A stretch of 61,834 nucleotides of DNA, counting the filler, from Rhabdomonas costata (Eukaryota): NCBI GenBank assembly GCA_019059605.1. It is 10 parts of 10 records of this genome, joined end to end, with 100 filler letters (N's around TTAATTAATTAA, not from the genome) between each part and the next. Parts side by side here need not be neighbours in the genome. Positions count along the whole stretch, not along the records: positions 30,231 to 36,085 come from JAHMHO010000033.1; 9 more parts are not named here. One strand, given 5' to 3'. The translations under genes and the position numbers were made by a program. This document shows positions 6,186-55,234 of this stretch, in pieces. Every line of letters begins with the position of its first letter. The stretch's first letter is position 1. The notes under the pieces were generated by a model, which ran no database searches, was not told the DNA's origin, and saw only the letters and a list, made by a program, of their open reading frames with translations.

Positions 6186-6285
6186 NNNNNNNNNNNNNNN
6201 NNNNNNNNNNNNNNNNNNNNNNNNNNNNNTTAATTAATTAANNNNNNNNNNNNNNNNNNNNNNNNNNNNNNNNNNNNNNNNNNNN
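6186..6285. other. Artificial contig spacer (N-run + TTAATTAATTAA + N-run). Repeated at 12167-12266, 18167-18266, 24171-24270, 30131-30230, 36086-36185, 42981-43080, 48908-49007, 55130-55229
   Basis: The same 100-bp structure, with a six-frame-stop linker, occurs nine times. Separate plain scaffold gaps lie at 37993-38395, 51457-51811 and 57767-57774. Confidence 0.97.
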
Positions 6286-11898: not shown

Positions 11899-12522
11899 CT
11901 GGAAAAAAAACGAGGACATGTCCCACAGGCTGTGCGCGCACAACAGGTTGCTGAAACGGAACCCAGATTTTACCGAAACGACATCTTGGCCTGGGGCACT
12001 GACGACTTGCAAACGAACGCTCATGAGATTGTTTGAATTTTTTGAATGCCGTTTTGCTTTTTTTGTAAAGCTTTGGGTTGTCGCTTGGTCAAAGCCAACG
12101 GCCCAACGGAATAAAAACGACCACGGTGGGGAACCGGAAAGGCGGTCTCTATCTCCACACAACCCCNNNNNNNNNNNNNNNNNNNNNNNNNNNNNNNNNN
12201 NNNNNNNNNNTTAATTAATTAANNNNNNNNNNNNNNNNNNNNNNNNNNNNNNNNNNNNNNNNNNNNGTGGTTGTGGGAATATCCAGCATAGTAAAACTTT
12301 TGCCCGACGGTCGTGTCGTGTGCTGTCTGCGAAACTCTGTGCCTCGGGAGATTGATCCCCTTTCATTCAGTGAGGCCCCTTTGCCTCTGCACATAGCACT
12401 TGTTTTTCACCACCTCCCCCCAGGAAAAGGAAAAAAAGGAAAGCGGTTCGATTTGCAGTGCAGCTCAATGAATGTGGCGTTTCCCCGCGTTTTCCAATTT
12501 ACGGGGTGTGGGGGAATTGCAG

Positions 12523-18155: not shown

Positions 18156-19174
18156 TCCACCCACACNNNNNNNNNNNNNNNNNNNNNNNNNNNNNNNNNN
18201 NNNNNNNNNNTTAATTAATTAANNNNNNNNNNNNNNNNNNNNNNNNNNNNNNNNNNNNNNNNNNNNTGTGTGTGGGCTGCAATCTTCGTGTTAGTACGAC
18301 TTCACTTATATTCTTCTTCGCACGCTCATTTTTCCTTTGGACACGTGGGAATATTGCGGTAACACACTGCTTCCACTTGCAGCATAAGACGAAAAGAACA
18401 CTTCAGTTTTCCTCGGGTAAGTTCTGGTTGCTGCTGCTGCTGCTGCTGCTGTTGTTGTTGTTGTTACAAAAGTGAAGCAGACCAAAATTGGAACAGCAGT
18501 CAGCACTGTTTGCTGTTTGTTCGAAAGGAAAACGCAATGATTTGCAGCTGACTATACTTTAATGTTCTGCAAACTGTAAGACAGACTGTAGGCAAGCACA
18601 GGGGGGGGGGGTGAAGGCAATACAAGTGGCTGGGCGAGAGGCTGCTGACCAGTTTCCAGTTTCGAAGAAAAGGGAGCAGCACGCCAGGTGAAGCAAATAT
18701 ATTGCGACTCGGTAGGGCTGGGAGCAAACACGGCCGGAAGCATTCTGTTTTCAGGAGTGTGCCGAAACTTCAGTTTTAACCAAAAAAAATATTTGGCAAA
18801 AAGAAAAAGCCCAATCGTGGGAAATGAGCTGGGTCCTTTGTTTCCATAGCCGCCTCTTCAGCTGGGCTTTGAGTGAAACGTTGGCATTCCCCTTTCCTCC
18901 ACGTACGTCTGTTCCACTCAAAAATCTCCTGCTGCGATCGAAAGCAAGGAAGGAAACAGAAACGGAAATAATATTTAAACGCTTTTTTTGTGGGGGGGCT
19001 TGTTTTTTCTTTTGAAAGCTCGCTTTGGGTCGTCGCACCCCCGGCCCTTAATCACTGCGAGCTTGTTCAATGCCACCGGAATTGGATATTTAAACGCTGA
19101 CAAACTGCTCGTCTCATTACGGAACAAAAGTGCATGCCTTTTGTTTTTACAGGTTCACTTTTGTGGTGTTTTAG

Positions 19175-23134: not shown

Positions 23135-26100
23135 CTCGCTTCACTCAGACACGAAGCAGGCGTCGTCCTGCCTCGCGGTTTAAGTGGAAGGAATCTGTGG
23201 TGAGGTTTTTTGTCTTCGACCCAACCACTGCCCGTTTGATTGGGATGAGTATCGGCACAGCCGGTTCTGAGAGTTTTGGTGTCACGGAATTAACAATCAG
23301 AAAGAGGTTTGGGGAAGCTAAAAGGAAGGAAATCGAAATGGCTCTATACTCGAAAGCAAATTGCTCTGATGGCCATCAACACCACCCCCTTCCCTCCCCT
23401 TTTTTTTTGGGGGGGGGGGGCGGAGGAAAATTGCAGCTGGCATCGCGTCAAAAAGCAGCGTCAAGATTTGGACAAATAGCTATCCAGAGCCGTTCATAAA
23501 GCATTTTTTTGAGCGGTACCAGTGTTATCTGCAGTGGGAAGCAATTGGGAGCAGAAGGGAGCAGCGCAGTGTCTATCTATAAAAAAGTCTGCACACAGGC
23601 GCAACTGGGATCCGATAAAGACAGACATGACAAGGGAAGGGAGGGGACAGGAGGGGAAGGGATGGGATTATCGATTCCTTAGTTTTCCACCCGAAGGCAG
23701 TGCTCCCTTGCCTTCCTCTTCCAAAGGGCACCAAAAAACCACTACTGCCACCGTGCACAAATGTACACGTAGAGAAGCTCACGATGCGAGGAGATGCGTG
23801 CATCGAGCACAGCACCCATCACAAACAACAAAACCCAACGGGGCAGACGGAACAGGGGCAGCGTTGCATGTTCCGGCTGCAACCAGGACGCGGTTGGAAT
23901 GTAGATTCCCACCCACGCACACACACTCGCCCACCTTTTTGTCCCCTCTGCTCCCCGAGAAAGGAACTCCAGCACATCAGAAGAGCAGAAGGTGGAGGAG
24001 CTCAGGCTCCCCGCGTCGCGAAAAGGAGAAAGCCCCACAAGGTGCGGAACCCAAAACACGGAGAAAGAGACGTGACGCCCAGTGCCAACCGCGCGCAGAA
24101 ACCTGCGCCGCTCTCGGTCAGCTCCGCTTCCACACCCGGAAAAACAAGCACAAAAAAAAAAATAAAAATANNNNNNNNNNNNNNNNNNNNNNNNNNNNNN
24201 NNNNNNNNNNNNNNTTAATTAATTAANNNNNNNNNNNNNNNNNNNNNNNNNNNNNNNNNNNNNNNNNNNNTTGTTGAGAGGATGGGGTGAGGGCTCTTGT
24301 TTGCTGTGTTTTTGTTGCAACGTTATGTAGTAGATAAGTGTGGGTTTGGTAGAAAGGACCTTCGAAAGACCCTGTGTGTAAGGTGCCAAATGACAGGCGA
24401 TTAAAATCACTCAGGTGTATTTCACGGCACGGCGAAAGCCGTACTTAGTCATAGCCATGGCACCCCAGGTGACTGCATTCTAAGCCTCATTTTGAGTCTG
24501 CCTTTGGTTTTGTTGGTTTTTATTCGGCTTTTTCTTTCGGCATTCTTTTGGCATACAGATGTCACACCATTTTGGGACTCTGTTTACACTGTTTCCGCCC
24601 CTGTCCCGCTGTGAGGAGCGGAAAGGAGGATGGGTTAGAATGGGGATAGAAATGGAACAGAATGGGAGTGGGAATGTTGATGAGACTCGGGATGGGTTGG
24701 AATGGAGGATAGGTTATGATTTTGAGGCTTGTTTTGAGGTGTCCTCCTGCTGCAGCATAGAGCCGAGCCACCCAGCCCACCCACCCTTCTGTGTGTTGGC
24801 TTCTGTGGGTTTTGAAGGCTTTCCCTTCTCTGTGGGTTTTTCGCGGTTGTTTCATTTACTGTGGAGTGTGAGTGTGTTCCTTTTTCTGGACTCTGTGGAA
24901 CCTCCCTGCCTCCGTCCCTCCCTTCTGTTCTCTTTTGCGCACGCGTGTAGTTGTACTTAACCAATAGTTGAGGCATTGCCATCTCCGGATTCTGGATAAG
25001 GTTGTTACCCCTCCCCATCCATTTCCGTGCCGGCCGGACTGCGAAGGTAGCAAACCATGGGATTGTTTGGGCTTAAGAGGAAAGGGGGGGGCCTCCGAGC
25101 TTGGGCCAGATGCAGGGCAAAAGACACCATGAGATGGCCGGAGCGGGGGCCGGGAAATGGGGTCGACCAGCCAGAAGCCCACTCGCCCATTGCCCTGAAC
25201 CCCTACACTGAATTGTACGATATCCCTTTGCTGCCCTTGCTGCCTTCTCTCTCTCTCTCTCTCTCTCTCTCGTCATTCGCCGTGGTTTTCTTTTTACCCA
25301 ACCTCCCAGGTCTAACTCTACTTAAATCGCCCTTTTCTGTCTTTCCTTCTCCGGATACTCTCGTGCCTTTGTGTTGTGGTGAGAACTTGCGGACAGAATT
25401 CGTAGTCCATTCGTGCCTTGTGCGTTGTTATGGCTCCCTGGTTTGGGGTCCGGGATTGCGGCATCACCCAACAAGTAGCAAGGCTCCCTCACTCACACCT
25501 CGTGCCTCGCCCAAACGCAATACCCGTTGCACCGTTGCGGTGTGCCTGCTGCACCTCTCCCTTCTCGTGGCAAAGTCACCTGAACTCCCCCCCTAAAAAA
25601 ATCAGGGACGCCAGTCATCTCGAGGCCAGTGTCGATTGTTTCGGACGGAGCCCCTGCCAATTTTTAAACGAATTTTTTGAGAGCAAAAAACTAAAACTCT
25701 CAAACTTATGTTTCACTATACTAATCCTTAACAAAGAACCCGCCAATGGAGAAAGGACCAGTCCCGAGCGTTTTCGGCAGGCCGTCTGTATTTTGAAAAG
25801 ACCTTCAGCTCTTCAGTTCTTCAGCTCTGTTGTTGACAGCTCATTGCAATAATTGCAGCAACGCAAAACAGTACTAATTGATAATCAGCTTTTCTCCCCA
25901 CCTTCTTTCAAGGCCCCCCAAGCCTAACCAGTTTTTGCACGAAATGCGAAGCTGGGGGGATCGGGGGGCTCGATGCTCCCGGGTCACTTGCACAGGGCTT
26001 AATTTTCCAGTTTCCGTTTTTATATTCTGTGCTTATACTTCGAACGCCAAGGTGTTTGAGTTTGGGTTGTTTTAATCGGGAGGGGGGGATATGGAAATTT

Positions 26101-28449: not shown

Positions 28450-30130
28450 TTAGAATAACCACGAATATCCACGAATAACCAGACGCATACGTTGGGTGTC
28501 TTCGAAGAGGTTCGGGTCAAGAGGGGAAGGTGAAGCTGATCCGAACAACAAAGGGGTGTTGAAGAACTCCAGGCTTACGTTCATCTGCCTCCGCCCTGCA
28601 GTGAAGTCAAAGGGAACACGGGCCTCCCGATAGCAGCTGAGGTCACCCGGGCGGAACCCGACGGGGTCCTCCACAAAGCCTAGAATGCAGAGCGGAGGGC
28701 AGAAGTCCGAATCGATAGAGTTCAGAGGGGCGGAGTGAGCGGAGTACGGAAACTCCGCGAGGGTCCAATTGGGGTGCGTTTGGTGCAGTGCCAGCACCCC
28801 TTCCATCGGGGAGGCCACGTCCCAGTCTCCGCTCACCAAAAGCACCGGATACTGCACCACAGGGTGCTTGTGGAAATACTCATCTTTCGGAAAAATGGGA
28901 AACCCCCTTTCCTTGAGCTTCTGTGCTCCCTCCGTAGTGTATTGCAGAATGAGCGCCCGATCCAGGATCGCCTCGATCTGCCGTGAGGATGGCTCTGGCC
29001 CCGCCGCAGGATTCCACCAGAGCTCAGACAAGAGAGCCATGTAAAAATAGATATCATTGGAACGGGTGTTGTACTGGGGGTTGAACTGGGCGGGAGGAAA
29101 CGAGTTCTCGGGAGTCCAATTCGGATCATCCACACCATTGACATCGACAAGGAAGAAGCGCAAGGCCCGGACATCCTCACTATCGCAGCGAGAGAGGCGA
29201 TACAGCACAGCAGGAATGACGGTACGTCTGTAAATATCAGAGTTAGCGCGATGCAGAGCAACCTGCAGCCTCTTGACCCCTTGTGGCCCGGAAAGGTAAG
29301 GGAAGTTCTCCAAAACACAACGGTGCTTCCTAGCTTTGATTTTAAGAATCACAGACTGCAGCGCATGGCGGGTGAGGGCTCCACCCCACAACCTGCTGCA
29401 GAACCCATTGAGATCTCGGTCGCAGCTGTCGAGGAATCGCAGGTGCGCCAAGTTTTCTATCTTGTCGAAGTATGCCATTGCGATAAGGACTGGATTCAAG
29501 GCAGAAGACAGGACTACCCCAGCAAAAGCATCCGGGCCAGCGATCTGCATCGTCCGCTGTGCCCAATACGTGCCAAAGCTCTCGCCATACAAGAAAACCT
29601 TAGCTGAGGGAAGGGCAAGGTCGCTTACCAACTTCAGCACATCACGGGCGGCATTGGTAATGGAGAAGTGCTTGAGGTCTGATCGAGCTTTCAGCATTGC
29701 GATGCAGGCGTCGTCTGGGTAGGACACGCTCCCATTGCAATTTATCTCAGAACTTGTGCCTACGCCACGATAGTCAGGTACGATAATTTCAACGTCCGTT
29801 CCGTCAAAAAGCGTGAAAACAGCAGGTGCCGACGCTGTTCCGGCTTCTCCCGGGCCACCAGCAAGAAAGACAACTTGGGCCTTCACGTCCCGGCGAGCGA
29901 GGAGCCTCCGGCGAGCGACCAGCGCAAAGAGATTGATGAGAGAGCTCTTGGGAGCTGAATAATCCAGAGGTAAGGGGAGGTTGAAGCAGTCAATGGTGTA
30001 TGTCGCGGTTGTCAATGCATGAGAAGAAAAAGCTGCCTGAGTATGTATGCGTAGTTTTCACGGATATGTGGGTTTTCTCCCACACCGTCCCGCTGGCATC
30101 CTCGACACAGTCCACGACCCGCTCGTAGAA
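28450..30130 (-). CDS. Alpha/beta hydrolase, peptidase S33/TAP-like. Exons 30130-30086 (partial) and 30036-28450
   Basis: FLAGGPG, PDYRGVGTS, nucleophile YGESFGT, acid SGDWDVAS and His YSAHS form a complete Ser-Asp-His triad. One 49-nt GT-AG intron at 30085-30037. Confidence 0.9.
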
Positions 30131-31663
30131 NNNNNNNNNNNNNNNNNNNNNNNNNNNNNNNNNNNNNNNNNNNNTTAATTAATTAANNNNNNNNNNNNNN
30201 NNNNNNNNNNNNNNNNNNNNNNNNNNNNNNCCTCTCCAAATCTCCCTGCAAACAAGTGCAGTGTCAGCCCCCTACCTGCTAGTGAGCGAGCCCTCTACCC
30301 CTTTGAGCTTTGTGCGCTGTGTTCGGGGCACAGGGTTTACTTGAATGTTTTTGTCATTCCTTCCTACGCCGCTTTCACTGTTTGATCCCATTTTTTGTAG
30401 TGCTTCCGTCCTGTAACACGGGTGCATCCCAGAATCTGCTCTCAGGTTTCCATTCCTTGGTGGCCTGCCGTGATTGCACGTGCTGCTTTGCACGTGATGC
30501 TTCCCTGTCCCACACCCTTTACTGGCTGTGGTATACCATGGTTCTCTCTCAGCATATTCCTGCCTGGGGTACGTGTCAGCTCAACGCTGCGGGTTGGGCG
30601 TAAGGAGGATGGCACTCTCCAGGCGGCGGTTGTGCGTAGGAATAATGTCATCCTTATTGTCGTGGTAGAGCTTTTGCGTTTTCCTCTCTAGTGTCCCGCG
30701 AATAACACCGATTGGTTTGCGAATTGGGCATGGGAAGGGAAGGGCTGCTCGGATGTGGCTTGTGGCTTCGTCTGGCCTTCGGCGGTTGATTTGGGAAGGT
30801 ATATGGTTTTGTACAGGATGCTTTTAGACTTCTTCTGTTGTGCCGTTTAGATTGTGTGCGGGTTGCATATGGTATACAACACACTTGTGGGTGTGCTTTG
30901 GAGGTTAGCTGGTGCCATGCCCGTGGTGTGGCTTCGGGACCTCCTGACGTACACGTGTTAATCACTTTATCGTGTCTGCTGACATGTTTTCCCCCACCAC
31001 CCCCGACCTCCTGCATTAACCTCGCAGGTTGTGCCCACCTTCCAAGGTTTCTGTGTGTGTGTGTATCTTCTACCAAGCAGCGAGTCCCAAGAGCAGCAGT
31101 CCTAAGAACAACTCTTGATGAGTAAAGTGCTGTTGGATGCGTCTTGCTGCGACCCATGTCTTTGTTGGGTTGCGCAGATTTTTGCCCGCCTTCGAAAGCT
31201 TCCGGTCTTTTCAGTCTTTCGAGACTGGCGCTCTACGGGTCCTGTTTGCACTGTGTTTTACTTGTGGTTTGATGGACATCTGCCTTGCTGGCGTTTGGGT
31301 GGGAGTGAGGGGGACGGGGTACAAAGATCTGAGGCATCCACCAACAGCGAAGAAAGAAAGGGGACTTGTACGTATATTTCCCGCTCGAGAATGACAGTGC
31401 TTTGGCGCTGCGGCTGCGACCATGATGGCGGCAGTTCCAGCTAAGGACCGTGCCACCGTGTCATTCAGCGCTGCGTTGGAAGCAAGCTTAGCCCATCTTC
31501 ATTCGCTCTTTCTCGTCGGTGGCGTGTGAAGGTGCTGGCGAACAGAACAGACTTGCCTATCAACAAACCCCCATTCGTTCTTTTCAAGCAGTGTTTTTCT
31601 CAGTGTCGCTCTTTTTTCTTGCTCCACTTTATTGAACCCTGTGAAACTGAGTCTGCTGGAGAA

Positions 31664-34600
31664 ATGGCGAAGGCCCACCTTGACAGGTCAGCCTTAAAAA
31701 GAAACGTGTTTCTCGCGGTGGTGGTCATGGCGGCACTGCTATTTCTCAAGGAAAACATGCCGTTCTTCGCGCGCTTTCCTCCTCAGCACGAACCAAAAAT
31801 AGGTACTCCACTCATTATGCTATGCTTCATGCGCGTCTACTTCGCTTCTATCCACTCAGTGTCATCGGGCTTCAGCCAATGAAGGGGTTTTGAATATATT
31901 TTCATTCTGCTAACGATGAGAATGGCGTCGGTGTTTTTATTTTCGAGCGAAACGGCGGAGGGGTGCCACAGTGGTGTTTCTTAGATGTGGTGGTCAAGGC
32001 TCCACAAAGCATTCTGTTCTGTTGTTGAATACTCATTTCAGTGATCGATTTTCAGTGATCGATTTTCAGTGATCGATACTGCAGCAAGTACCATGCAAGA
32101 GCAGCAAACGAATAAACATGGGAGCAGAGAGACACACTTTCCCGAAGAAAGGGTGGGGGGAGATTAGCTGATGACAATCGGCTCCAGGCTGCGCCTGGAT
32201 TTTCCCGGAGGTTTGGAAGGCCTGCATCCACGTCGGTGGCAATGGGTTGGGAGGATGGTGCTCCGCGTCGGCGGTCTTCCTGCCCCAAAACCCGCGGAGA
32301 TTGAGCAGGGCACCCTAACTGCCGGTGGAGTATCGTTACTCATTCTTACGGGCTCGCAGTCTCACGGGCCTCGATCGTCGAACCCTTCCTCCCCCAAATA
32401 AGAGAGTGACAACGCATGAGGGGCGAAGATGTGTTAGATTTCAGGCCACGCCTGGATTTTTCCCCATGGCCTGCACCCACCTATTAAGAAGCTCCGAAGC
32501 TGGGCGTCGGCCGACTTTCTGCCCCCAAACCCAGGGAGATAGGGTTGTTGGGTAGTAGGGCTGGCCCTACCTTCAAGTTGCTTTTTTTTTTGCTCCCGCA
32601 GGCCACCATCGCGCAGAAACAGCGCCGGAGAGGAGAGAGAAGGGGTTAAGGGAGTATTCTCGAACAAAAATTTGACGATGTGATTTTATCCAACGTCCAT
32701 ACCATTCACGCCCTCACCCCTCACTGTGCTGTTTTTAAACGAAAAATGGAACTCTCTGTGACTGCGTATCGGACATTCTTTTATCGTATAATATTCCTTT
32801 GTTTATAAATGTGTGTGCAAAACGGGCCAAGAAGGACAACTGAGTGTTGAAGGGTTGGCGAAGGGAAGGGAACGCTCACAGAACTCCCAGCCCTGACCTG
32901 CACCACGATGAGGTCCTGTCGCAGCAGCACCATTCTCCGCTTGGACGCTGCCCTGAAGCATTGCATGGCGAGCCCGTGCACACAAGAGGAGTGCTGCGTG
33001 CCAGGTTCGTTCGATGTGGGCTGCAAACACAGGATGTGCAATGGGAGGGTGAGGGGTTCGAAAGTCGAATACCCTTTTCGAATACCCTTTGCGCTTCACA
33101 CTGCTTGTAGCGCATGTGCCGGCACAACCACGCCGATATTTGGTGAACCCCAAAACAATTGAGCCTGCAATAGAAATGCTTTCCACCACTTTGCCTACAG
33201 TTGTCAAAGAAACAGAGGTGGTAAGGGTTATTCTATGGAAGGGAGGCTGTGGGGTTTGTGGGCTCTTCCCAGCACCAAGTTGCGACACGAGGCCTGACTC
33301 ATGGTGCCCGCCTGGCACCGTTAATATTGCGGATCCGACGTACGTGTATTGCAAGACGAGCGTGTGCACGCCGAAGGATTGCTGCATCCCCGGTGTTTGT
33401 GAGCAGATGGGGGCTGCCTCCTCTTCTCATTTCTCGTTAGGATTTGCCGGTAGCCAGGCTCCCTCGTCTTTGGGACCGCAGCCTGGCCCCAGCTTTTAGT
33501 TTTGTCCTTTTTCTACAAGGCACTTGATTGGGCCCTCATTGTAGTTCACGAGTGGGGCTGCATTTTTCCCTTTAGAGCATTGCTGTGGATGGTCATGCTC
33601 GTGGTGTGATACTGCTTTGTTGCATTTTTCTTGCGTACCTCTTCAGCTCTGACCTGCGCCACGGTGACCTGCCCGAAGAATCACTTGCTGCCCTCCAGTC
33701 CCTCCTCCACCTCATGCCGCCGGGCAGCGTGCACCACAGCGGAGTGCTGCGTTCCAGGTATGCAGCAAATTCCGCAAAGCCTTCAGAGGTTGGGAATCGT
33801 GACGGTGACGGGAATCGGAAATGGTGGGTGGGGCCGTGCTTTAGCGAAGCCCCCAGTACCCTTTTGTGTGCGACTTTCCGCATTTGCGTATATTCAGGCG
33901 CTTCCAGATTTTGAGCTCCCATTGAACATATGCGGTAGTCCACGCCTGAGGCTGGAGGCTCGGTTTTCATCCTCCCCGTTCGTTGGGCACGGGTGCAGTC
34001 GCACCGCGATTTGTTTGTGGTTGTCCGAAGCGAAACCAGTGCTGGCACATTTTGCGGCAGGGTTGCAGGGGTTAATTGTGTTGTTCTATGGTGCCGTTGC
34101 GATTTGAGTTATTTTGAGCAAAAAGAGATACACGCGCCCTGGAGGATCACTTTGACGGACGCGCTGGCACTGGGAGGAGCCGTCATGACCCTCATGGGAC
34201 GCGACCTGTTCGAGGGGGCCGTTTTGCCCCTATTGCAAGTCGGACCGTTGCTTGTTGACCATGAACATTTTCCGGCTCAGTCAACTCAGACTAAGAACTG
34301 ACCGCATACACGGGGCGAAGAAATACAAAAAAAAACACAAACCGGCGTAACTGCAACAAAGCGAAAACCTCATCATGTTGGGTTCGGTTTGGGCTGTGCA
34401 GGCAGCCATGCAGCAAGCCTTGAAAGAGAAAGAAACATGAGCGTAGCTTCAGAGTCGATTCCACCCTGGCTTCGGGCGAGTGGGTGTGGACTCTTCCCAG
34501 CGTCCACCTGCGAGACGATGTCTGCGGGCTCGTGCCCTTTGGGCACCGTGTCCGTGGCCGATCCGTCTTCCACGTACTGCAAGGCCAGCGTTTGCAGTGC

Positions 34601-35591
34601 GAAGGATTGCTGCAGCCCCGGTATTTTTGAGAGCGACACAGTGTTTAGTGTTTGTATGTGTGCCCTTGCTCCTGTCACGCCACTGCCCTCTGCTTTTCCT
34701 GAATGGGCTCGGCTTGTGAGCATTCTCAGCGGTTGTTGTGTGCCGCTTCGACGTAGTACATGTATATGGTAGAAAGTTGAAAAAGGAATCGTTTCTGGAC
34801 GCTTTTGTGCGTCTCGCTGGTCTTCCCTTTTTTTCGGTCGTTGTTTTGGGTCTTGTGTTTGGGCTAAAGCTTCGTCCTGCGCCACGTTGATCTCCTGCCC
34901 GAAATACAAGATGCTGCTCCTCAACCCCAGCGTGGCGTACTGCCGGGCGTTTGTGTGCACCCCTGAGGAGTGCTGCGTTCCATGTATGCGTGGAAGCAGG
35001 GAGCTGGGCTGGGTGCTGCAACCAGATCCCATGGAGATTCCCATTGCTCTCGTTGATTAAGGGAATGGGTGCGTCAGAGTTAGTCAGGACTAAAATTCAA
35101 AGTTAACTAACAGGCAAATATAAAAGAGTTTACAGATACTTTGGCAAGGTGCAGTATTTTTCCCTGTACGTTTCGGAGATGTAGAGATCACTTCTGTTGA
35201 ATCAATTAACCTGCTCTCCTGCCCTTGGGGTTCTCGGCCATTGTGTTTTCGCCCAACGTGCTTGGTTACATTTTGGGGGTTTTGTCCCGAAGCCTTTTTC
35301 GCCCCACAACGTACCTTTTATACTCCGCACTTTATTTATCAGGGTTTTTGGTTACCTGAACTGCGATGCGTTCAGTGCAATGGATGCCTTTGTGTCGAAT
35401 AGAGGTTGAGATTGTCAGAAAAGGATTATGCATCGCGCTTTTGGCATCACTTTCGATTTGGCCGCTATGGTCGGTTTTAGTGCCGACCTGTTCCACGATG
35501 AGCTGCCCCGAGAAGAGCGTGCTCCGTTTGAACCCGTCCTCCATCGTTTGCAGCACCAAAGAGTGCACTCCACAGGAGTGCTGCATCCCAG
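31664..35591 (+). CDS. Signal-anchored protein with tandem 6-Cys modules, one per exon. Exons 31664-31802, 32891-33004, 33273-33392, 33647-33757, 34501-34620, 34870-34983, 35481-35591 (3' end missing)
   Basis: Exon 1 reads MAKAHLDRSALKRNVFLAVVVMAALLFLKEN... (basic then hydrophobic) and ends in phase 1. Six AG/GT-bounded exons of 111-120 nt, all phase 1-1, each encode (T/S)C-x4-7-C-x14-C-x4-C-x4-CC-x-P. Confidence 0.85.
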
Positions 35592-36216
35592 GTGTCTGCA
35601 GGGAAACGAATAGAATAAGAAAATCCCGAAGAAAAATAAAGCGGAAGAGATACAAGAATGATCTCCCTCTGCAGTTTTGAATGGTGTCGATGCGCTATCC
35701 AAGAGGGAGGTTTAGTTGGCTGTTGGCACCAAAGGAAGGGCTTGCTCGGCCATGATTCTGAAGTATGGGATGCTGCTGGATACACTGCAGTGTGCCGCTT
35801 AAAAATACGAAAAGAATTACGAAAAGAAATGCGAAAGAAAAGTTAGGAAAGGTTTTCAGCGGTCGATTTGTGCGAAAAGATTGGCTACCCTGTCAACTGA
35901 CGGCGCATTGTTTTCAGTCCCTGTTTGGGTCAGAGCGAAGGAAAAAACGCTCTTGACACGTAGGCATTTTCTGATTTTTTGCATCTGATAAAGGCGACTT
36001 TTTCTTTCCTTCTTCAAGCCCCATTTCCAGCGCGCAGTGTCAACAAACCACATGTGCTCGGTACCCAAGTGCTATAACACAAACCNNNNNNNNNNNNNNN
36101 NNNNNNNNNNNNNNNNNNNNNNNNNNNNNTTAATTAATTAANNNNNNNNNNNNNNNNNNNNNNNNNNNNNNNNNNNNNNNNNNNNGGGTTTGTGTTGTTG
36201 AATGCTCGCGCATGCC

Positions 36217-42980: not shown

Positions 42981-43249
42981 NNNNNNNNNNNNNNNNNNNN
43001 NNNNNNNNNNNNNNNNNNNNNNNNTTAATTAATTAANNNNNNNNNNNNNNNNNNNNNNNNNNNNNNNNNNNNNNNNNNNNTTTTGTTGTTTCCTCTTACA
43101 CACAGACGAAAGTGAACCACTACACCTATATTCTGACTTGGTTTTCCGGTCAAATGACCCCTTAATTGAATCGTGAAGGGTTTGGCGGCTGATTCGTTGG
43201 TCACCAGGATAGTTGTTCAGAGCGGTTCTTTTTACACGGCGTCACTCAG

Positions 43250-44928: not shown

Positions 44929-47900
44929 ATGATATCGGAGTGCAGCTCTGAAGCATCTCCTAGGCAACTCGTGAGGTCCACGGGTTCACATGCCTCCGAC
45001 CTGTCGGGTGAGGGCGAAGCCGTCGGAGGCAGCTTCTCTGAGGCCTCCTCAGAGGATGGCGGTGCCCTCGACCCGTTGATGGACGACGACGAGCAGGCGG
45101 TAGCGGAGTGCCGGAATTGCGTGGTGTGCCCCAAGGACTTGCCGTTCTCTGTGGACAGCGCGCTGGCAATTGCCTCGAACCCGTTCAAGATGGGCTTCCC
45201 CGGGGCCCTGGAGCAGGAGTACCGCGACTGGGCCCACATGCGGTACATCCCGTGCCGGCTGTGGCTGCTGATCTCGGGGTTCCTGGCGGAGGTGGACATC
45301 TTCACGTACGGGGAGCTCTCGCACTCCGTGGACATTGTGCTGATGCACCTGGTGGTGCTTGCCCAGGTGGTGCTGGTGGGGCTGCTGTCGATCCCGCGGC
45401 TGTACCCGTACCGGAGGTTCCTAGTGCTGGGGATGGGCCTGCACAACCTGGTGTGGACGGGGCTGTGTACGCAGCAGGTGGTGCACCAGGTCTCTGGGGT
45501 GCACCAGAACACGTTTGTGGTGCTGCCGTTCTACTGCAGCTTCGCGTGCGTGGTGGCTGCACAGGTGTCTGGGATCGCGGGTGGGGGGAGGAGAATAGCA
45601 GGATCCTGTTGCAGCGGTTTTTGGTTTTAGTTGAAATGCAGCGACCGACTCAGCAAAGCATGCAATGATTCAATTGTGTAGGGAGTGGGGCAGTCCCGTT
45701 TTAGATGGTGATAAATCTTGCTGATAAATGCGGTGAAAGGGAAGTGTTGGATTGTTTGGTTTGTCCGGGACCCGTTTGCATATGTTGATTCGTTGCTTGT
45801 GAAGCACCCGCCTTCTTCTGGTGCACTCTGGGTTCTCTGTAAGTTGTTTAGCGTCCTCTGTGTGTATGCTCAGATTCCTGCCCGCTATGTGATGTTCATC
45901 TTCCTGCTTTTTCCCTTGGCGAACGCTCTCTGGAGAATTGTTCTGTACTACAACACGCGATCCGCAGTGGTACTTCTGCTGTGGTGGTGGGTGATTGCGG
46001 CATGGTCGTACCTGTTCGAGCGGGTCACTCGGGGGCTCTTCGTTTGGCACCGCGCTGCTACCCAGGTATTGTCAATTTTGCCATGTGCTTCTTTCCGTGA
46101 TGCGACGGGACATTTTGGCTGTGGTGCTGCTGCTACAGTTTTCTCACCGCTCATTGTACTTCGCCTTTGCTCCGATTATCCTGCTTTCCTTTCCTTTTTG
46201 CAGGCTCAGCAGCAGCAAGAGAAGCTTCAGCAGGAGACGCGATCTATGTTGCAAGCCATTCTTCCCCCTTCGCTTTGCCAGTACCTTCGATTGTGTGCGG
46301 GAAACGCGGCGAACGCGGGGAACTCAGCCTCCGCCACCGATGGGAAGCAGCCACCGGTGATCAGCCGATACATGGAGCGCGTCCTGATTGTTGTTATGAG
46401 TCGTATCAGAGATCCAGAGGCGGCCGGAACCGCCGGAGCCGTCTTGGACGGGGCATCCCAAATATTTGAGCAGCACGGGTTTCAGAAACTGAATTCGCAA
46501 GCTGATTCTGTTGCCTTGATGAAGGTTCTTGACAGCGAAAGCAGTGACACGCAGGACAAGCTCGCCTTGCTTGAGCTTCTGCGCCTTGCTGCGGCCTCGC
46601 TGCTGCCCAGCACGAGCACCAAGGCAGTGGTGCGGTTTGGGATTCACCTGGGGTCGGCAGTGAGCGGGCTTATAGTCACGCGGGCTTTTGTGAAACAAGC
46701 GATGCTATCTACTGGGCTGGTCACTGCCCACAAGCTTGGCAAAGTGCAAGTTGAAACCATTGTTCAGGACGACTCCCTTGTGCTTGCGTTGATGCTGCAG
46801 TCTACGCTGACCGCGACAGATATTCCAGTGAGCTCCGTCGCCTTCACGGAAGCCGCAATTACGTCGACCTCCAGTGCAGATGTGGTTGCCGTTCTGAACC
46901 TCAGCCGTCAGCCCACGCGAGGGTCGGCGCTGGCCCCACCTCCTGTGAACTCCTCCTCGAACGCCCCCGATGCAGGCGAGGCGGTATCGCTGCTGAAGAA
47001 TCTGATGTGCGAGGCTTCGGTGACCCACGATGAGGTGCAGTTGGGTCCACTACCGCGTCTGCCGTGGAAAAGCATATTCAGCCTGTCCGGGTTGAGGTTT
47101 GAGTTCAGCCTGTTCGAGGCCAACTACCGCGAGTTCGTGCTGTACACCTTGCCCGAGCTTTTCTACGTGCTGGTGGGGTGCCAGCTGTTTTGTGGGCTGT
47201 GGAGCATCGTGGGCTCGCTGGCGGTGATCCTTCCGTGCCACCCTGTGAGTCTCCCGGCGGGGATCCTGCCGTGGGTGGGAGCCCTTGTGGTGCTTTTGGG
47301 TGCGAGCATTCCTCCCTCAGTGTCGCTTTTGCGGGAGCTGCGCCGTCCCGAGATCCGCCGAAGCAAAATCAACGGCTTGCTGGCCGTGCTGCTGAGCATC
47401 ATGCTGGGATACTATATTGTGTGTCTCGTGCTGGTATACATGCAGCCGGGGCTTTCTCAGAGCAGTGACTGGGACGACTATGTTTCAGCAGCGACTCGAG
47501 GGGAGTCCCACTTCAGTCCCTTTGATGGCCAGGAGTGCATCAACATGCTGTACAACATGAGCTTCTTTGTTCTGTTTGGGATTTACTTCTGCGTGTCTGT
47601 GATCCCGCTGCACATCTGCACTACGTTGCGTGTGGCGGGAATCGCGGTGCTGTTCGTGTCGACCTCTGCGACGGCCACGGTGATCTTTCACCACACGGAC
47701 TACAAGGAGAACGTTCTTGCCCCTGTGGTGTGCCTGATGGTGATCATGGTGGAGCTGCTGGTGCGGTACTTCTACAAGGCCCTGCTTACGGCACACCGCT
47801 GCCACCTGGACATTGAGCAGCAGCCCGAGATGCAGGCCCGGCAGGCCGTGATGCTTGCCAGCATGCCCGCCCGGCTTTCGCAGGCCCCGGAGAACACAGT

Positions 47901-48846
47901 GATCCACCGCACGGCTGCGGTGGTGCTTCTGCACTTCCCTCTGCTGGACGCGCTGGTTGGGGACCCGGAACTGTCGTCAGCGAAGGCTCTGCGTGCGTTT
48001 GAGGACCTTGTGAAGCTGAACAAGGTAGTGCAGCGGAACCTTGTCCGAGGCAATGTTGGGATCGAGGCGTGTGTTGTGCAGGAAACGCTGTCGTCGGGGC
48101 GATGTGGGCTGCAGTTGTTTGTACCCTGTCCTGCTGATGTGGGCAGCTTTACCCAGGCTTTGGTGGCATTCGCGGAGCACCTGGCGCTGCAGCTCCGATG
48201 CAGCACCTCCATTGGGCTGAATTACCCCGCAGTATTCTTCCTTTCCATGGGTGTTTCGGCGATCACGGAGAGCTTCCGTGATGGCAGCCACCAGGTGGAC
48301 GGCGCTGCCGTGGGGGAGGCGGAGAGGTTTCTGACGCGATGCCCTTTGAATGGCATAGCTTGCGGGTTCCTCACGGAGACCACCAGAGCTCAGCTTTCCT
48401 TCTGCTCCATGAGATCTGCGGTGAGCCGCCGCTCTTTTTGCAGCGCTGTGAGCCGGATGAGTCGCCACAGCTTTCGCAGCACCAGCACCGTTTCGCGTAA
48501 AGCGAACCCAAGCAGGCCCCACACCCATTCGGGTCCTGAGAGGCAGTATGTTTGTCTTGCTCTGGTGTGGACTTACGTCGCCCCACAGGTTAGCTCTGAG
48601 AACATCAAGGGTCTCCCAAATTCAACAAGCGTTAGTTCCCTGACGGCTTCTCCGCCAACCGTGGCGCCGGGCTTCACTGCAGGGCATGCCCAGGACCTGG
48701 AAATGGTGAGCGACTCCCTGCGGGGAACCGCGGTGTCCGTCCAGCTGGATCTGACGCAAGGGTGCGTACCCGAGGAAAAAAAGAGAAAATCTTGCTTTTG
48801 CGTTTGCAGCGATGAGTTCGAGCTGCTTTGGGCTATTTTCCGGTGA
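44929..48846 (+). CDS. Polytopic membrane protein with two degenerate class III nucleotide-cyclase-like domains. Exons 44929-45564, 45874-46065, 46204-48846
   Basis: Two multi-TM blocks, each preceded by a 'F...(L/F)E..Y' motif (GFPGALEQEY; FEFSLFEANY) and followed by a coiled linker and a cyclase-like segment (QKLNSQADS...VVRFGIHLGSAVSGLIV; QVDGAAVGEAERF). Confidence 0.7.
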
Positions 48847-49234
48847 TCAGCTCTGCAACTTCCCCGAAAATGTACCATTCCAATTGACTGCGTGTGTCCA
48901 AAAAACCNNNNNNNNNNNNNNNNNNNNNNNNNNNNNNNNNNNNNNNNNNNNTTAATTAATTAANNNNNNNNNNNNNNNNNNNNNNNNNNNNNNNNNNNNN
49001 NNNNNNNTGCTGCTACCGTTCAGCACGTGGTACGAGGTCTTTCAGATGATTAAGCGCCAGCCTCGAAGCAGTTCCTGGAGTCTGCTGTGCAGCATGGGCG
49101 CAGTGCAGGTCTGTCCCAAGCCTTCTGCGAGCAACAGACACCCCTCCGCATAGGTTGAAACTCAGAGCGCATTTGCTTTTCCTCTCTTATGCTGACTACC
49201 GACCCAAGCTGCACCGAATGCCACTGAAAAGCAC

Positions 49235-55123: not shown

Positions 55124-55234
55124 AACACANNNNNNNNNNNNNNNNNNNNNNNNNNNNNNNNNNNNNNNNNNNNTTAATTAATTAANNNNNNNNNNNNNNN
55201 NNNNNNNNNNNNNNNNNNNNNNNNNNNNNGTTGG

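What the first reader, a model, noticed from the sequence alone, without database searches (positions are those of the whole stretch)
31664..35591. One-module-per-exon cassette array of 6-Cys domains on a membrane-anchored protein
Seen: six exons, all phase 1-1 and all multiples of 3 (114, 120, 111, 120, 114, 111 nt). They encode ALTCTTMRSCRSSTILRLDAALKHCMASPCTQEECCVP / APSCDTRPDSWCPPGTVNIADPTYVYCKTSVCTPKDCCIP / ALTCATVTCPKNHLLPSSPSSTSCRRAACTTAECCVP / ASTCETMSAGSCPLGTVSVADPSSTYCKASVCSAKDCCSP / ASSCATLISCPKYKMLLLNPSVAYCRAFVCTPEECCVP / LPTCSTMSCPEKSVLRLNPSSIVCSTKECTPQECCIP. Cys spacing after C2 is invariant (x14, x4, x4, CC) while the loops are highly variable. There are two subtypes in the order A-B-A-B-A-A, and the two B exons share their acceptor (GTGG.CTCTTCCCAG), showing duplication of exon plus intron. 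Established: phase 1-1 exon-bordered disulfide modules (EGF, sushi) are the signature of metazoan exon shuffling. Inference: an independent protist exon-shuffling module that I cannot assign to a named family. Any subset of exons can be skipped in frame, so combinatorial surface/secretory isoforms are possible.
Basis: partly seen in the sequence, partly recalled or inferred. Interest (0 to 1): 0.82.

Follow-up and report, generated by a model that had tools for sequence, protein, structure and literature searches.

The report
One-exon-per-module cysteine repeat gene
This is a real-looking protist (probably euglenid) gene whose product is a membrane-anchored or secreted string of six small disulfide-rich modules, each on its own exon; the module is an unnamed family also found in other protists and giant viruses.

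Summary
Seven GT-AG-bounded exons (31664-35591, + strand) splice into one open frame of 276 codons with 36 Cys and no stop. Exons 2-7 each hold one six-Cys module and all are phase 1-1. The first module exon is therefore more likely 123 nt (32882-33004) than 114 nt.

The module (C-x4-9-C-x12-17-C-x4-C-x4-CC) has no Pfam or PDB sequence match. It is not private to this gene. It recurs in a euglenid Kelch protein, Picozoa, an ichthyosporean, two dinoflagellates and a giant-virus contig, there inside uninterrupted ORFs.

The array looks like an old intragenic exon duplication, because the introns share nothing except 16 nt before the two B exons. Exon shuffling between genes and combinatorial exon skipping remain untested, since no RNA reads or whole genome were available.

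Most likely product: an N-terminally anchored or secreted, disulfide-stiffened extracellular stalk or coat protein. The gene's 3' end is lost at the contig end. Interest is moderate.

The parts
30131..30230 (.). Assembly linker (N44-TTAATTAATTAA-N44) marking the left end of the contig that carries the gene
   Evidence: N runs listed; the window is a chain of ~6-kb contigs, so neighbouring genes are not syntenic
31664..31802 (+). Exon 1: ATG, 46 codons + 1 base (phase 1). Basic N-terminus followed by a 14-residue hydrophobic stretch (signal anchor or signal peptide)
   Evidence: Kyte-Doolittle 19-residue maximum 2.03 at residue 10, and the only windows above 1.6 start at residues 9-18. The start MAKA.LD is shared with transcript-derived P0008
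31803..32881 (+). Intron 1 (GT...AG), ending at 32881 or at the alternative acceptor 32890; holds a 14-nt x3 tandem repeat and an internal imperfect duplication
32882..33004 (+).
   Evidence: P0008 residues 44-84 match 32881-33003 at 97.6% (40 of 41), including E-L-P encoded upstream of 32891
33273..33392 (+). Module exon B1 (120 nt), phase 1-1, long C1-C2 loop (x7), CPPGTV...KDCC
33647..33757 (+). Module exon A2 (111 nt), phase 1-1
   Evidence: P0008 residues 85-122 match 33646-33759 at 89.5%, and the junction falls exactly at this acceptor
34501..34620 (+). Module exon B2 (120 nt), phase 1-1; shares 16 nt of upstream intron with B1
   Evidence: (family D2, 147 nt at 72%)
34870..34983 (+). 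Module exon A3 (114 nt), phase 1-1; last base T, so the next codon is TTG (Leu)
35481..35591 (+). Module exon A4 (111 nt), ends in phase 1 with a GT donor, so the coding sequence is not finished here
35592..36085 (+). Unresolved 3' part up to the contig end: read-through gives a 29-residue basic tail and then a stop; several AG acceptors would give short tails; no further module
   Evidence: none of these alternatives is supported by any transcript evidence

Best explanation
This is a genuine nuclear gene of a euglenid-like protist, complete at its 5' end and cut off at its 3' end. Its closest named relative is a transcript-derived Rhabdomonas costata protein. Exon 1 encodes a basic N-terminus plus a hydrophobic segment that takes the chain into the secretory pathway, as an uncleaved type II anchor or a signal peptide. 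Six exons follow, each encoding one 36-40-residue module with six Cys (C-x4-7-C-x14-C-x4-C-x4-CC), presumably forming three disulfides. All introns are conventional GT-AG and lie in phase 1, exactly at the module borders. The module belongs to a rare, so far unnamed repeat family. That family also builds tandem arrays behind terminal membrane anchors in other protists and in giant viruses. The array arose by old tandem duplication of a symmetrical phase 1-1 exon, probably as an A+B pair (A-B-A-B), followed by further A copies. The Cys framework was held constant while the loops diverged. The product most likely works as a disulfide-stiffened, rod-like ectodomain (a surface stalk, coat or adhesion protein). 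Its variable loops are the exposed, possibly ligand-binding, part. Shown: exon structure, open spliced frame, coding composition, family membership, and expression of a near-identical paralogue or orthologue. Inferred: topology, disulfides, rod shape, surface role.
For: Splice sites, phases and the open 276-codon frame come. GC3 is 0.80 in the exons against intron GC of 0.46-0.54. P0008 comes from a proteome that its paper says was predicted from the transcriptome (PMC8219788, passages). It matches A1 at 97.6% and A2 at 89.5%, with junctions at the predicted borders. The profile of the six modules finds 18 proteins at E<=1e-3 among 1.84 billion representatives. In one search, 17 of the 25 proteins P0008-P0032 examined had every regex-matched module with C2-C3 spacing x12-17 and C3-C4, C4-C5 spacing x4, x4, then CC; P0012 and P0020 each had one module deviating at C3-C4 or C4-C5; P0010, P0013, P0025 and P0032 each had one match carrying an extra Cys; and 2 (P0016, P0024) had no match. 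The 19-module profile finds 22 proteins at E<=1e-3 among 2671 candidates. Named sources are R. costata, Picozoa, Pirum gemmata, Polykrikos kofoidii and Karlodinium veneficum. One relative is on a viral contig beside a giant-virus (NCLDV) major capsid protein gene. A terminal hydrophobic segment is present in 14 of 26 family proteins by a crude hydropathy cut-off, 10 N-terminal and 4 C-terminal, and in the window's exon 1. AlphaFold gives pLDDT 80.2 for a single module and 64-92 per 10-residue block (70-92 from residue 41) for the six-module part of P0010, after an N-terminal helix at residues 4-23. Introns are unrelated except for 16 nt before the B exons, so the duplications are old.
Against: There is no RNA evidence for this locus itself. 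P0008's exon-1 part is only 52.6% identical to the window's, so P0008 comes from another locus or organism. No full-length product of this gene appeared in either protein collection. The 14-residue hydrophobic stretch is short for a plasma-membrane span. The C-terminus is missing, so the true architecture is unknown. Disulfide pairing was not obtained, because the tools return no coordinates. Fold searches gave no significant analogue, so 'rod-like stalk' rests on analogy. dN/dS among A modules is 0.71-1.10 on about 36 codons, which is compatible with weak constraint on the loops. The organism assignment rests on one near-identical protein. A 535-residue ORF on a neighbouring contig found no close relative.
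Confidence: 0.7

Rival explanations
1. Cassette use: the symmetrical module exons are skipped in varying combinations, giving a repertoire of surface isoforms.
For: All six module exons are phase 1-1 and multiples of 3, so any subset can be dropped in frame. The transcript-derived P0008 joins a module identical to A1 directly to an A2-like module with no B module between. The A1 acceptor has an in-frame alternative 9 nt away.
Against: P0008's first exon is only 52.6% identical to the window's, so it reflects another locus that may simply lack a B exon. Only one such protein was found (1 hit of 17 candidates). No reads could be laid on the locus. Symmetrical phases are an automatic result of exon duplication and need no splicing function.
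Confidence: 0.15
2. Shuffling between genes: the module spread among unrelated genes of this lineage as a phase 1-1 exon, an independent protist version of metazoan-style exon shuffling.
For: The same module sits in different contexts. It flanks a Kelch propeller in R. costata P0013 and follows an EGF match in P0025 (E 2.3e-4, 21.8 bits against a cut-off of 21.5). It also occurs with other unassigned regions in P0009, P0011, P0012 and P0022. The module is exactly exon-bordered here. In the metagenomic ORF P0019, a Phe/Leu-rich stretch between two modules begins 'G-T' right after CC-x-x, as an in-frame read-through of a phase-1 GT donor would (my inference).
Against: No genomic DNA of any other module-bearing gene of an intron-rich organism could be obtained: there is no whole genome and two metagenome scans were empty. 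In the viral and metagenomic ORFs the modules are contiguous. Domain mobility can arise without intron-mediated recombination.
Confidence: 0.3
3. Recent acquisition from a giant virus (or the reverse), with the euglenid gene being a domesticated viral membrane protein.
For: A family with the same layout (N-terminal hydrophobic helix, six modules) lies next to a giant-virus (NCLDV) major capsid protein gene on contig L001.
Against: The window gene has six spliceosomal introns, and its exon GC3 of 0.80 differs from intron GC as in a resident gene. Module identity to the viral-type proteins is only 30-56% to the query in the listing. No tree was built, so no direction of transfer can be claimed.
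Confidence: 0.1
4. Dead or artefactual locus: a pseudogene or an assembly chimera whose exon-like pieces are not expressed together.
For: The contig ends 494 nt after the last module exon and no stop codon is defined. The full-length product is absent from the protein collections searched.
Against: The locus has seven exons with intact GT-AG sites, no stop in 276 codons, 36 of 36 Cys positions kept, TGC used in 34 of 36 Cys codons, and GC3 of 0.80. Near-identical modules are present in a transcript-derived protein.
Confidence: 0.05

Closest known systems
Unnamed six-Cys repeat family seen here in Rhabdomonas costata (P0008, P0013), Picozoa (P0026), Pirum gemmata (P0012), Polykrikos kofoidii (P0017), Karlodinium veneficum (P0042) and giant-virus-associated ORFs (P0010, P0025, L001)
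   Same: The Cys framework (C-x4-9-C-x12-17, mostly 14, -C-x4-C-x4-CC) is the same, as are the roughly 5-residue linkers and the tandem arrays. Short and long C1-C2 loops often alternate, and many members have terminal hydrophobic anchors.
   Different: In the metagenomic and viral ORFs the modules lie in one uninterrupted frame, whereas here each module has its own exon. Partner domains differ (Kelch, EGF, none). None of these proteins has a described function or a Pfam model.
EGF-like and other class 1-1 modules of animal extracellular proteins (Patthy's exon-shuffling modules; recalled, and cited in PMC6547436)
   Same: Both are small modules of about 40 residues with six Cys. Both are encoded one per symmetrical phase 1-1 exon, repeated in tandem in secretory or membrane proteins, and occur in several domain contexts.
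   Different: There is no sequence match to any EGF-type Pfam model (0 of 6 window modules; 0 of 19 A2 members). The Cys spacing differs and ends in an adjacent CC pair. No significant structural match was found.
TNF-receptor cysteine-rich domains (TNFR_c6)
   Same: Both are elongated ladders of roughly 40-residue, three-disulfide units. TNFR-type chains were the only kind of solved structure to surface, weakly, in the fold searches of the six-module model: RANK and DR6 at Z 2.0-2.2, rmsd 2.6-3.9 over 41-53 residues. TNFR rows led the Foldseek lists at E 0.058 or worse. TNFR-Cys proteins also appear in the viral library.
   Different: All these scores are below any significance threshold. There is no Pfam TNFR match and the Cys pattern is different. 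I treat this as an analogy of shape only.
Apicomplexan 6-Cys (s48/45) domain
   Same: Only the count of six cysteines and the surface-protein context are shared.
   Different: That domain is about three times longer (recalled, not tested), and no Pfam match to it was returned.

Membership tests
Unnamed C-x4-9-C-x14-C-x4-C-x4-CC repeat family (defined here from the hits) | Six Cys with spacing x12-17 (mostly 14), x4, x4 and a terminal adjacent CC | tested here: met
   6 of 6 window modules. Of the 25 proteins examined, 17 had only conforming modules, 2 (P0012, P0020) each had one module off at C3-C4 or C4-C5, 4 (P0010, P0013, P0025, P0032) each had one match with an extra Cys, and 2 (P0016, P0024) had no match and are probably false hits.
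Unnamed C-x4-9-C-x14-C-x4-C-x4-CC repeat family (defined here from the hits) | Significant profile match between the window modules and family members | tested here: met
   The profile of the window modules gives E 2e-26 to 7.6e-4 for 18 proteins. The 19-module profile gives E 4e-68 to 3.2e-7 for 22 proteins.
Unnamed C-x4-9-C-x14-C-x4-C-x4-CC repeat family (defined here from the hits) | Tandem array attached to a terminal hydrophobic anchor or signal | tested here: met
   Window exon 1: hydropathy maximum 2.03 at residue 10. 14 of 26 family proteins have a terminal hydrophobic segment by a crude cut-off; many of the rest are fragments.
EGF-like domain | Match to an EGF-type Pfam model or EGF Cys spacing | tested here: not met
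   0 of 6 window modules and 0 of 19 A2 members match at E<=10. The only EGF hit, in P0025 at residues 124-153, lies outside its modules.
EGF-like domain | EGF fold (two small beta-hairpins with 1-3, 2-4, 5-6 disulfides) | tested here: inconclusive
   The single-module model found no match in Foldseek or VIA-align. A 40-residue model is too small for these scores, and disulfide pairing was not obtainable.
TNFR cysteine-rich domain | Sequence match to TNFR_c6 | tested here: not met
   No Pfam hit.
TNFR cysteine-rich domain | Structural superposition on solved CRDs | tested here: inconclusive
   Best Z is 2.0-2.2 and Foldseek E is 0.058 or worse, all far below significance.
Apicomplexan 6-Cys s48/45 domain | Match to the s48/45 Pfam model; domain of about 120 residues (recalled) | tested here: not met
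   No Pfam hit at E<=10. The modules are 36-40 residues long.
Exon-shuffling module in Patthy's sense (class 1-1) | The module coincides with a symmetrical phase 1-1 exon | tested here: met
   6 of 6 module exons.
Exon-shuffling module in Patthy's sense (class 1-1) | The same module occurs in otherwise unrelated proteins | tested here: met
   P0013 has Kelch repeats (E 1e-23) between modules. P0025 has an EGF match. Other members have differing unassigned regions.
Exon-shuffling module in Patthy's sense (class 1-1) | The module is flanked by phase-1 introns in those other genes too | not testable with these tools
   No whole genome is held. Metagenome scans with P0008 and P0019 found nothing.

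The most novel reading that the evidence does not exclude
The module is an undescribed extracellular domain family shared by distant protist lineages (euglenids, dinoflagellates, Picozoa, ichthyosporeans) and giant viruses. In euglenids it would be propagated within and between genes as a phase 1-1 exon. That would be an independent, non-metazoan instance of the class 1-1 exon-shuffling mode, possibly with in-frame cassette skipping that varies the exposed loops of a surface protein.
Probability: 0.25. Interest if true: 0.65.

Novelty: new variant of a known kind. Interest (0 to 1): 0.45.

Why it matters
Euglenid nuclear genomes are barely annotated. The paper on the closest named organism says its genome draft was too fragmented for gene prediction (PMC8219788, abstract and passages).

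A clean seven-exon gene with strictly module-bordered, phase-1, conventional introns shows that this lineage builds repeat proteins by symmetrical exon duplication. That is the substrate exon shuffling needs.

The module is conserved across several eukaryotic supergroups and in giant viruses, yet it has no Pfam model or solved relative. It is a reasonable candidate for a new domain family entry. It could also serve as a marker for surface or secreted proteins in poorly known protists and their viruses.

The function is unknown and the locus is incomplete, so the value is descriptive rather than mechanistic for now.

Tried and rejected
- No whole genome is held.
So there was no RNA evidence for this locus and no search for paralogues in the genome.

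**Named-family and sequence searches**
- Pfam on the six modules, 20 family proteins and the 19 A2 members gave nothing for the module. The only row was TILa, for 1 of 19 members at E 0.26.
- PDB sequence profiles gave only chance rows: an antibody heavy chain at E 9.6 and a mu-conotoxin at E 0.76.
- The ESM Atlas gave no usable hit for P0010. For the P0012 array it returned unnamed 'hypothetical protein' clusters at 0.82-0.87.
- P0008 against proteins of similar length found only itself among 17 candidates. The 'longer' range was not searched with P0008.

**Fold searches**
- The single module found no match in Foldseek PDB or VIA-align wide.
- The six-module model gave no Foldseek PDB row at E<=0.001. 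Only 3 chains reached Z>=2, all TNFR-type.
- BFVD gave one row at E 7.1e-4 without a name, then TNFR-like rows.

**DNA-level searches**
- tblastn of P0010 against the phage collection found no match.
- Metagenome scans failed three ways. The A2 alignment was rejected for lacking a conserved stretch. P0008 gave 424 pattern matches, none confirmed. P0019 gave 235 pattern matches, none confirmed.
- Rfam on the whole window gave 0 matches.
- Long antisense ORFs over the exons (5 tested) have no Pfam family and are taken as by-products of GC-rich exons.

**Literature and other**
- Searches for exon shuffling in euglenids, for phase 1-1 in protists, and for cysteine-rich repeats in giant viruses or dinoflagellates found no description of this module. 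These cover only the open-access library held.
- A 535-residue hydrolase-like ORF from a neighbouring contig was tried as an organism marker. It gave only 27-31% identical relatives.
- My first exon-1 coordinates were wrong and were corrected.
Full report
**Setting.** The window is not one chromosome stretch. It is a chain of roughly 6-kb contigs joined by N44-TTAATTAATTAA-N44 linkers. The finding lies on the contig spanning 30231-36085, so genes on either side say nothing about it. The contig ends 494 nt after the last module exon.

**Observation.**
- Each coding piece is preceded by AG and followed by GT.
- Exon 1 is 31664-31802 (139 nt). My first attempt used coordinates off by one or two bases and produced stops; one search corrected this.
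- Joined by coordinates, the seven exons give 829 nt: 276 codons plus one base, no stop, 36 Cys.
- Reading through any intron meets a stop within 25-116 codons, and four of the six intron lengths are not multiples of three. The frame therefore exists only after splicing.
- Third-position GC in the module exons is 0.80 and exon GC is 0.59-0.67, against 0.46-0.54 in the introns.
- 34 of the 36 Cys codons are TGC.
- A profile of the six modules finds exactly these six in the six-frame translation of the whole window (E 6e-15 to 3e-20; next best 0.032).
- Cys spacing after C2 is x14, x4, x4, CC in all six, and C1-C2 is x4-5 in the A modules and x7 in the B modules.

The anatomy is real and far beyond chance.

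**Transcript-level support and a boundary correction.** The best hit of the module profile among 1.84 billion representative proteins is P0008 (E 2e-26). The collection names it as a Rhabdomonas costata entry. The paper on that organism states that its protein set was predicted from the transcriptome, because the genome draft was too fragmented for gene prediction, and that the introns it checked were conventional GT/AG (PMC8219788, abstract and searched passages).

tblastn of P0008 on the window gives three relevant matches.
- Residues 44-84 match 32881-33003 at 97.6% (40 of 41).
- Residues 85-122 match 33646-33759 at 89.5%.
- Residues 1-54 match exon 1 at only 52.6%.

Three things follow.
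- The family is expressed, and the module-to-module junction (…CCVP|A…) falls exactly at the predicted donor and acceptor.
- P0008 carries E-L-P before the first module. With that acceptor the two proteins align without a gap from FP..HEP to the first Cys. The first module exon is therefore more likely 32882-33004 (123 nt), still phase 1-1.
- P0008 comes from another locus, or a close relative's orthologue, given its divergent first exon. Its direct A1-to-A2-like junction, with no B module, cannot be read as skipping at this locus.

P0008 ends with G plus 28 unrelated residues after CCVP. That is what an unspliced G|GT donor would give; this is my inference.

**What the module is.**
- No Pfam model matches the six modules at E<=10, any module region of 20 family proteins, or the 19 aligned modules taken singly (one TILa row at E 0.26).
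- PDB sequence profiles give only chance rows. The ESM Atlas gives only unnamed clusters.
- The module is nevertheless not private to this gene. The window-only profile finds 18 proteins at E<=1e-3, and a 19-module profile finds 22 among 2671 candidates.
- Of the 25 proteins examined for Cys spacing, 17 show only the same framework (C2-C3 x12-17, mostly 14, then x4, x4, CC). P0012 and P0020 each have one deviating module, P0010, P0013, P0025 and P0032 each have one match with an extra Cys, and P0016 and P0024 have no match and are probably false hits.
- Named sources are R. costata (P0008, and P0013 with five modules around a Kelch propeller), Picozoa, the ichthyosporean Pirum gemmata (15 modules), and the dinoflagellates Polykrikos kofoidii and Karlodinium veneficum.
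- A subfamily with an N-terminal hydrophobic helix, six modules and a conserved tail has a member on viral contig L001. It sits two genes from a giant-virus (NCLDV) major capsid protein gene.
- In these metagenomic and viral ORFs several modules lie in one uninterrupted frame. One exon per module is therefore a feature of this gene or lineage, not of the module.

**Structure.**
- AlphaFold2 on the 19-module alignment gives a 40-residue model at mean pLDDT 80.2, with a short C-terminal helix over the ..ECC motif.
- For P0010 with ten relatives, the module part scores 64-92 per 10-residue block (70-92 from residue 41) behind a helix at residues 4-23. Each module shows a small strand pair and a four-residue helix.
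- Fold searches find nothing significant. The single module gave no row.
- For the six-module model, Foldseek rows start at E 0.058 and are mostly TNF-receptor ectodomains, EGF arrays and a mastigoneme protein. VIA-align gives three TNFR-type chains at Z 2.0-2.2.
- The viral library gives one unnamed row at 7.1e-4, then TNFR-like proteins.

I read this as an analogy of shape, an elongated ladder of small disulfide units, and not as membership of any of those families. Disulfide pairing could not be extracted.

**Topology.** Exon 1 encodes a basic 14-residue N-terminus, then a 14-residue hydrophobic stretch. The Kyte-Doolittle 19-residue maximum is 2.03, and the only windows above 1.6 in the protein are at this end. 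No small-residue cleavage motif follows, which is my reading. So it is a type II signal anchor or a signal peptide, with the Cys modules on the lumenal or extracellular side. Of 26 family proteins, 10 have a strongly hydrophobic N-terminal segment and 4 a C-terminal one by a crude cut-off; many of the others are fragments. This fits a secretory or surface family.

**History of the array.**
- B1 and B2 are each other's closest relatives (54% aa, 68% nt), and A-B pairs share 28-41% aa.
- The order A-B-A-B-A-A suggests duplication of an A+B pair followed by extra A copies.
- The two B exons share 16 nt of upstream intron and about 12 nt downstream (family D2). Otherwise no pair of introns scores above shuffled controls. 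The best pair, introns 2 and 4, reaches z 3.3, and that score is the acceptor match itself.
- The duplications are therefore old. The conserved 16 nt is as likely a splicing constraint as a relic.
- Identical phases in all six exons are what descent from one symmetrical exon predicts. They demonstrate intragenic exon duplication.
- They do not by themselves show shuffling between genes. That claim needs the gene structures of other module-bearing genes, which I could not obtain.
- One hint exists. In the metagenomic ORF P0019, a Phe/Leu-rich stretch between two modules starts G-T right after CC-x-x, as a read-through phase-1 intron would (inference only).
- dN/dS is 0.32-0.48 for 8 of the 10 estimable pairs that involve a B module or A3-A4 (B1-A2 0.62 and B2-A4 0.71 are higher; B2-A3 was saturated), and 0.71-1.10 among the other A pairs, on about 36 codons each. 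The loops are weakly constrained or diversifying; the data are too short to say which.

**What remains open.**
- The 3' end is unknown. After the last donor, read-through gives a 29-residue basic tail, and several acceptors would give short tails. There is no further module on the contig.
- Expression of this very locus, the use of the B exons, any exon skipping, the disulfide map and the function are all untested.
- PMC6547436 (passages) reports that exon-domain border alignment is general across eukaryotes, including some protists, with phase 1-1 enrichment in metazoans. A protist example fits known trends and does not overturn them.
- Three literature searches found no description of this module, within the open-access library held.

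**Verdict.** The gene is an N-terminally anchored or secreted array of six-Cys modules, one per phase 1-1 exon. The modules belong to a rare, unnamed but widely scattered family. Intragenic exon duplication is shown; shuffling between genes and combinatorial splicing are open. This is a new variant of a well-known kind of gene architecture, of moderate interest.

Noticed in passing
window 6186-6285, 12167-12266, 18167-18266, 24171-24270, 30131-30230, 36086-36185, 42981-43080, 48908-49007, 55130-55229: Regular N44-TTAATTAATTAA-N44 linkers show that the window is a concatenation of separate contigs of about 6 kb. Adjacency of genes across linkers therefore means nothing.
   Followed up: partly
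window 32036-32077: A perfect 14-nt x3 tandem repeat (TTTCAGTGATCGAT) lies inside intron 1.
   Followed up: no
window 32185-32301 and 32442-32540: Two stretches of intron 1 about 240-257 nt apart are 81-86% alike (repeat families D6 and D8). This is an internal duplication or a small repeated element in the intron.
   Followed up: no
L001 107-1819 and 3534-5219: A 570-residue module-bearing ORF on a viral contig lies two genes from a giant-virus (NCLDV) major capsid protein gene, and a PI-PLC-like gene follows. Giant viruses therefore carry this module family.
   Followed up: partly
protein P0019 (metagenomic, 188 aa): Between two modules lies a Phe/Leu-rich stretch that starts G-T directly after CC-x-x. 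It looks like an in-frame read-through of a phase-1 GT intron at the same module border in another organism. Its DNA could not be fetched.
   Followed up: partly
window 28450-30057 (- strand): An uninterrupted 535-residue alpha/beta-hydrolase-like ORF on the neighbouring contig has only 27-31% identical relatives in 5.8 billion proteins.
   Followed up: partly
window 45715-48846 (+ strand): A 1043-residue open frame with many hydrophobic stretches is the longest ORF in the window. It was not examined.
   Followed up: no
window 32803-33426, 33593-34108, 34373-35096 (- strand): Long antisense open frames (171-227 residues) run over the GC-rich module exons. None has a Pfam match, so they are taken as compositional by-products.
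   Followed up: yes
proteins P0012, P0010, P0013: Short (x4-5) and long (x6-9) C1-C2 loops tend to alternate along arrays in distant members too. This hints that a two-module unit like the window's A+B pair is an old feature of the family.
   Followed up: no
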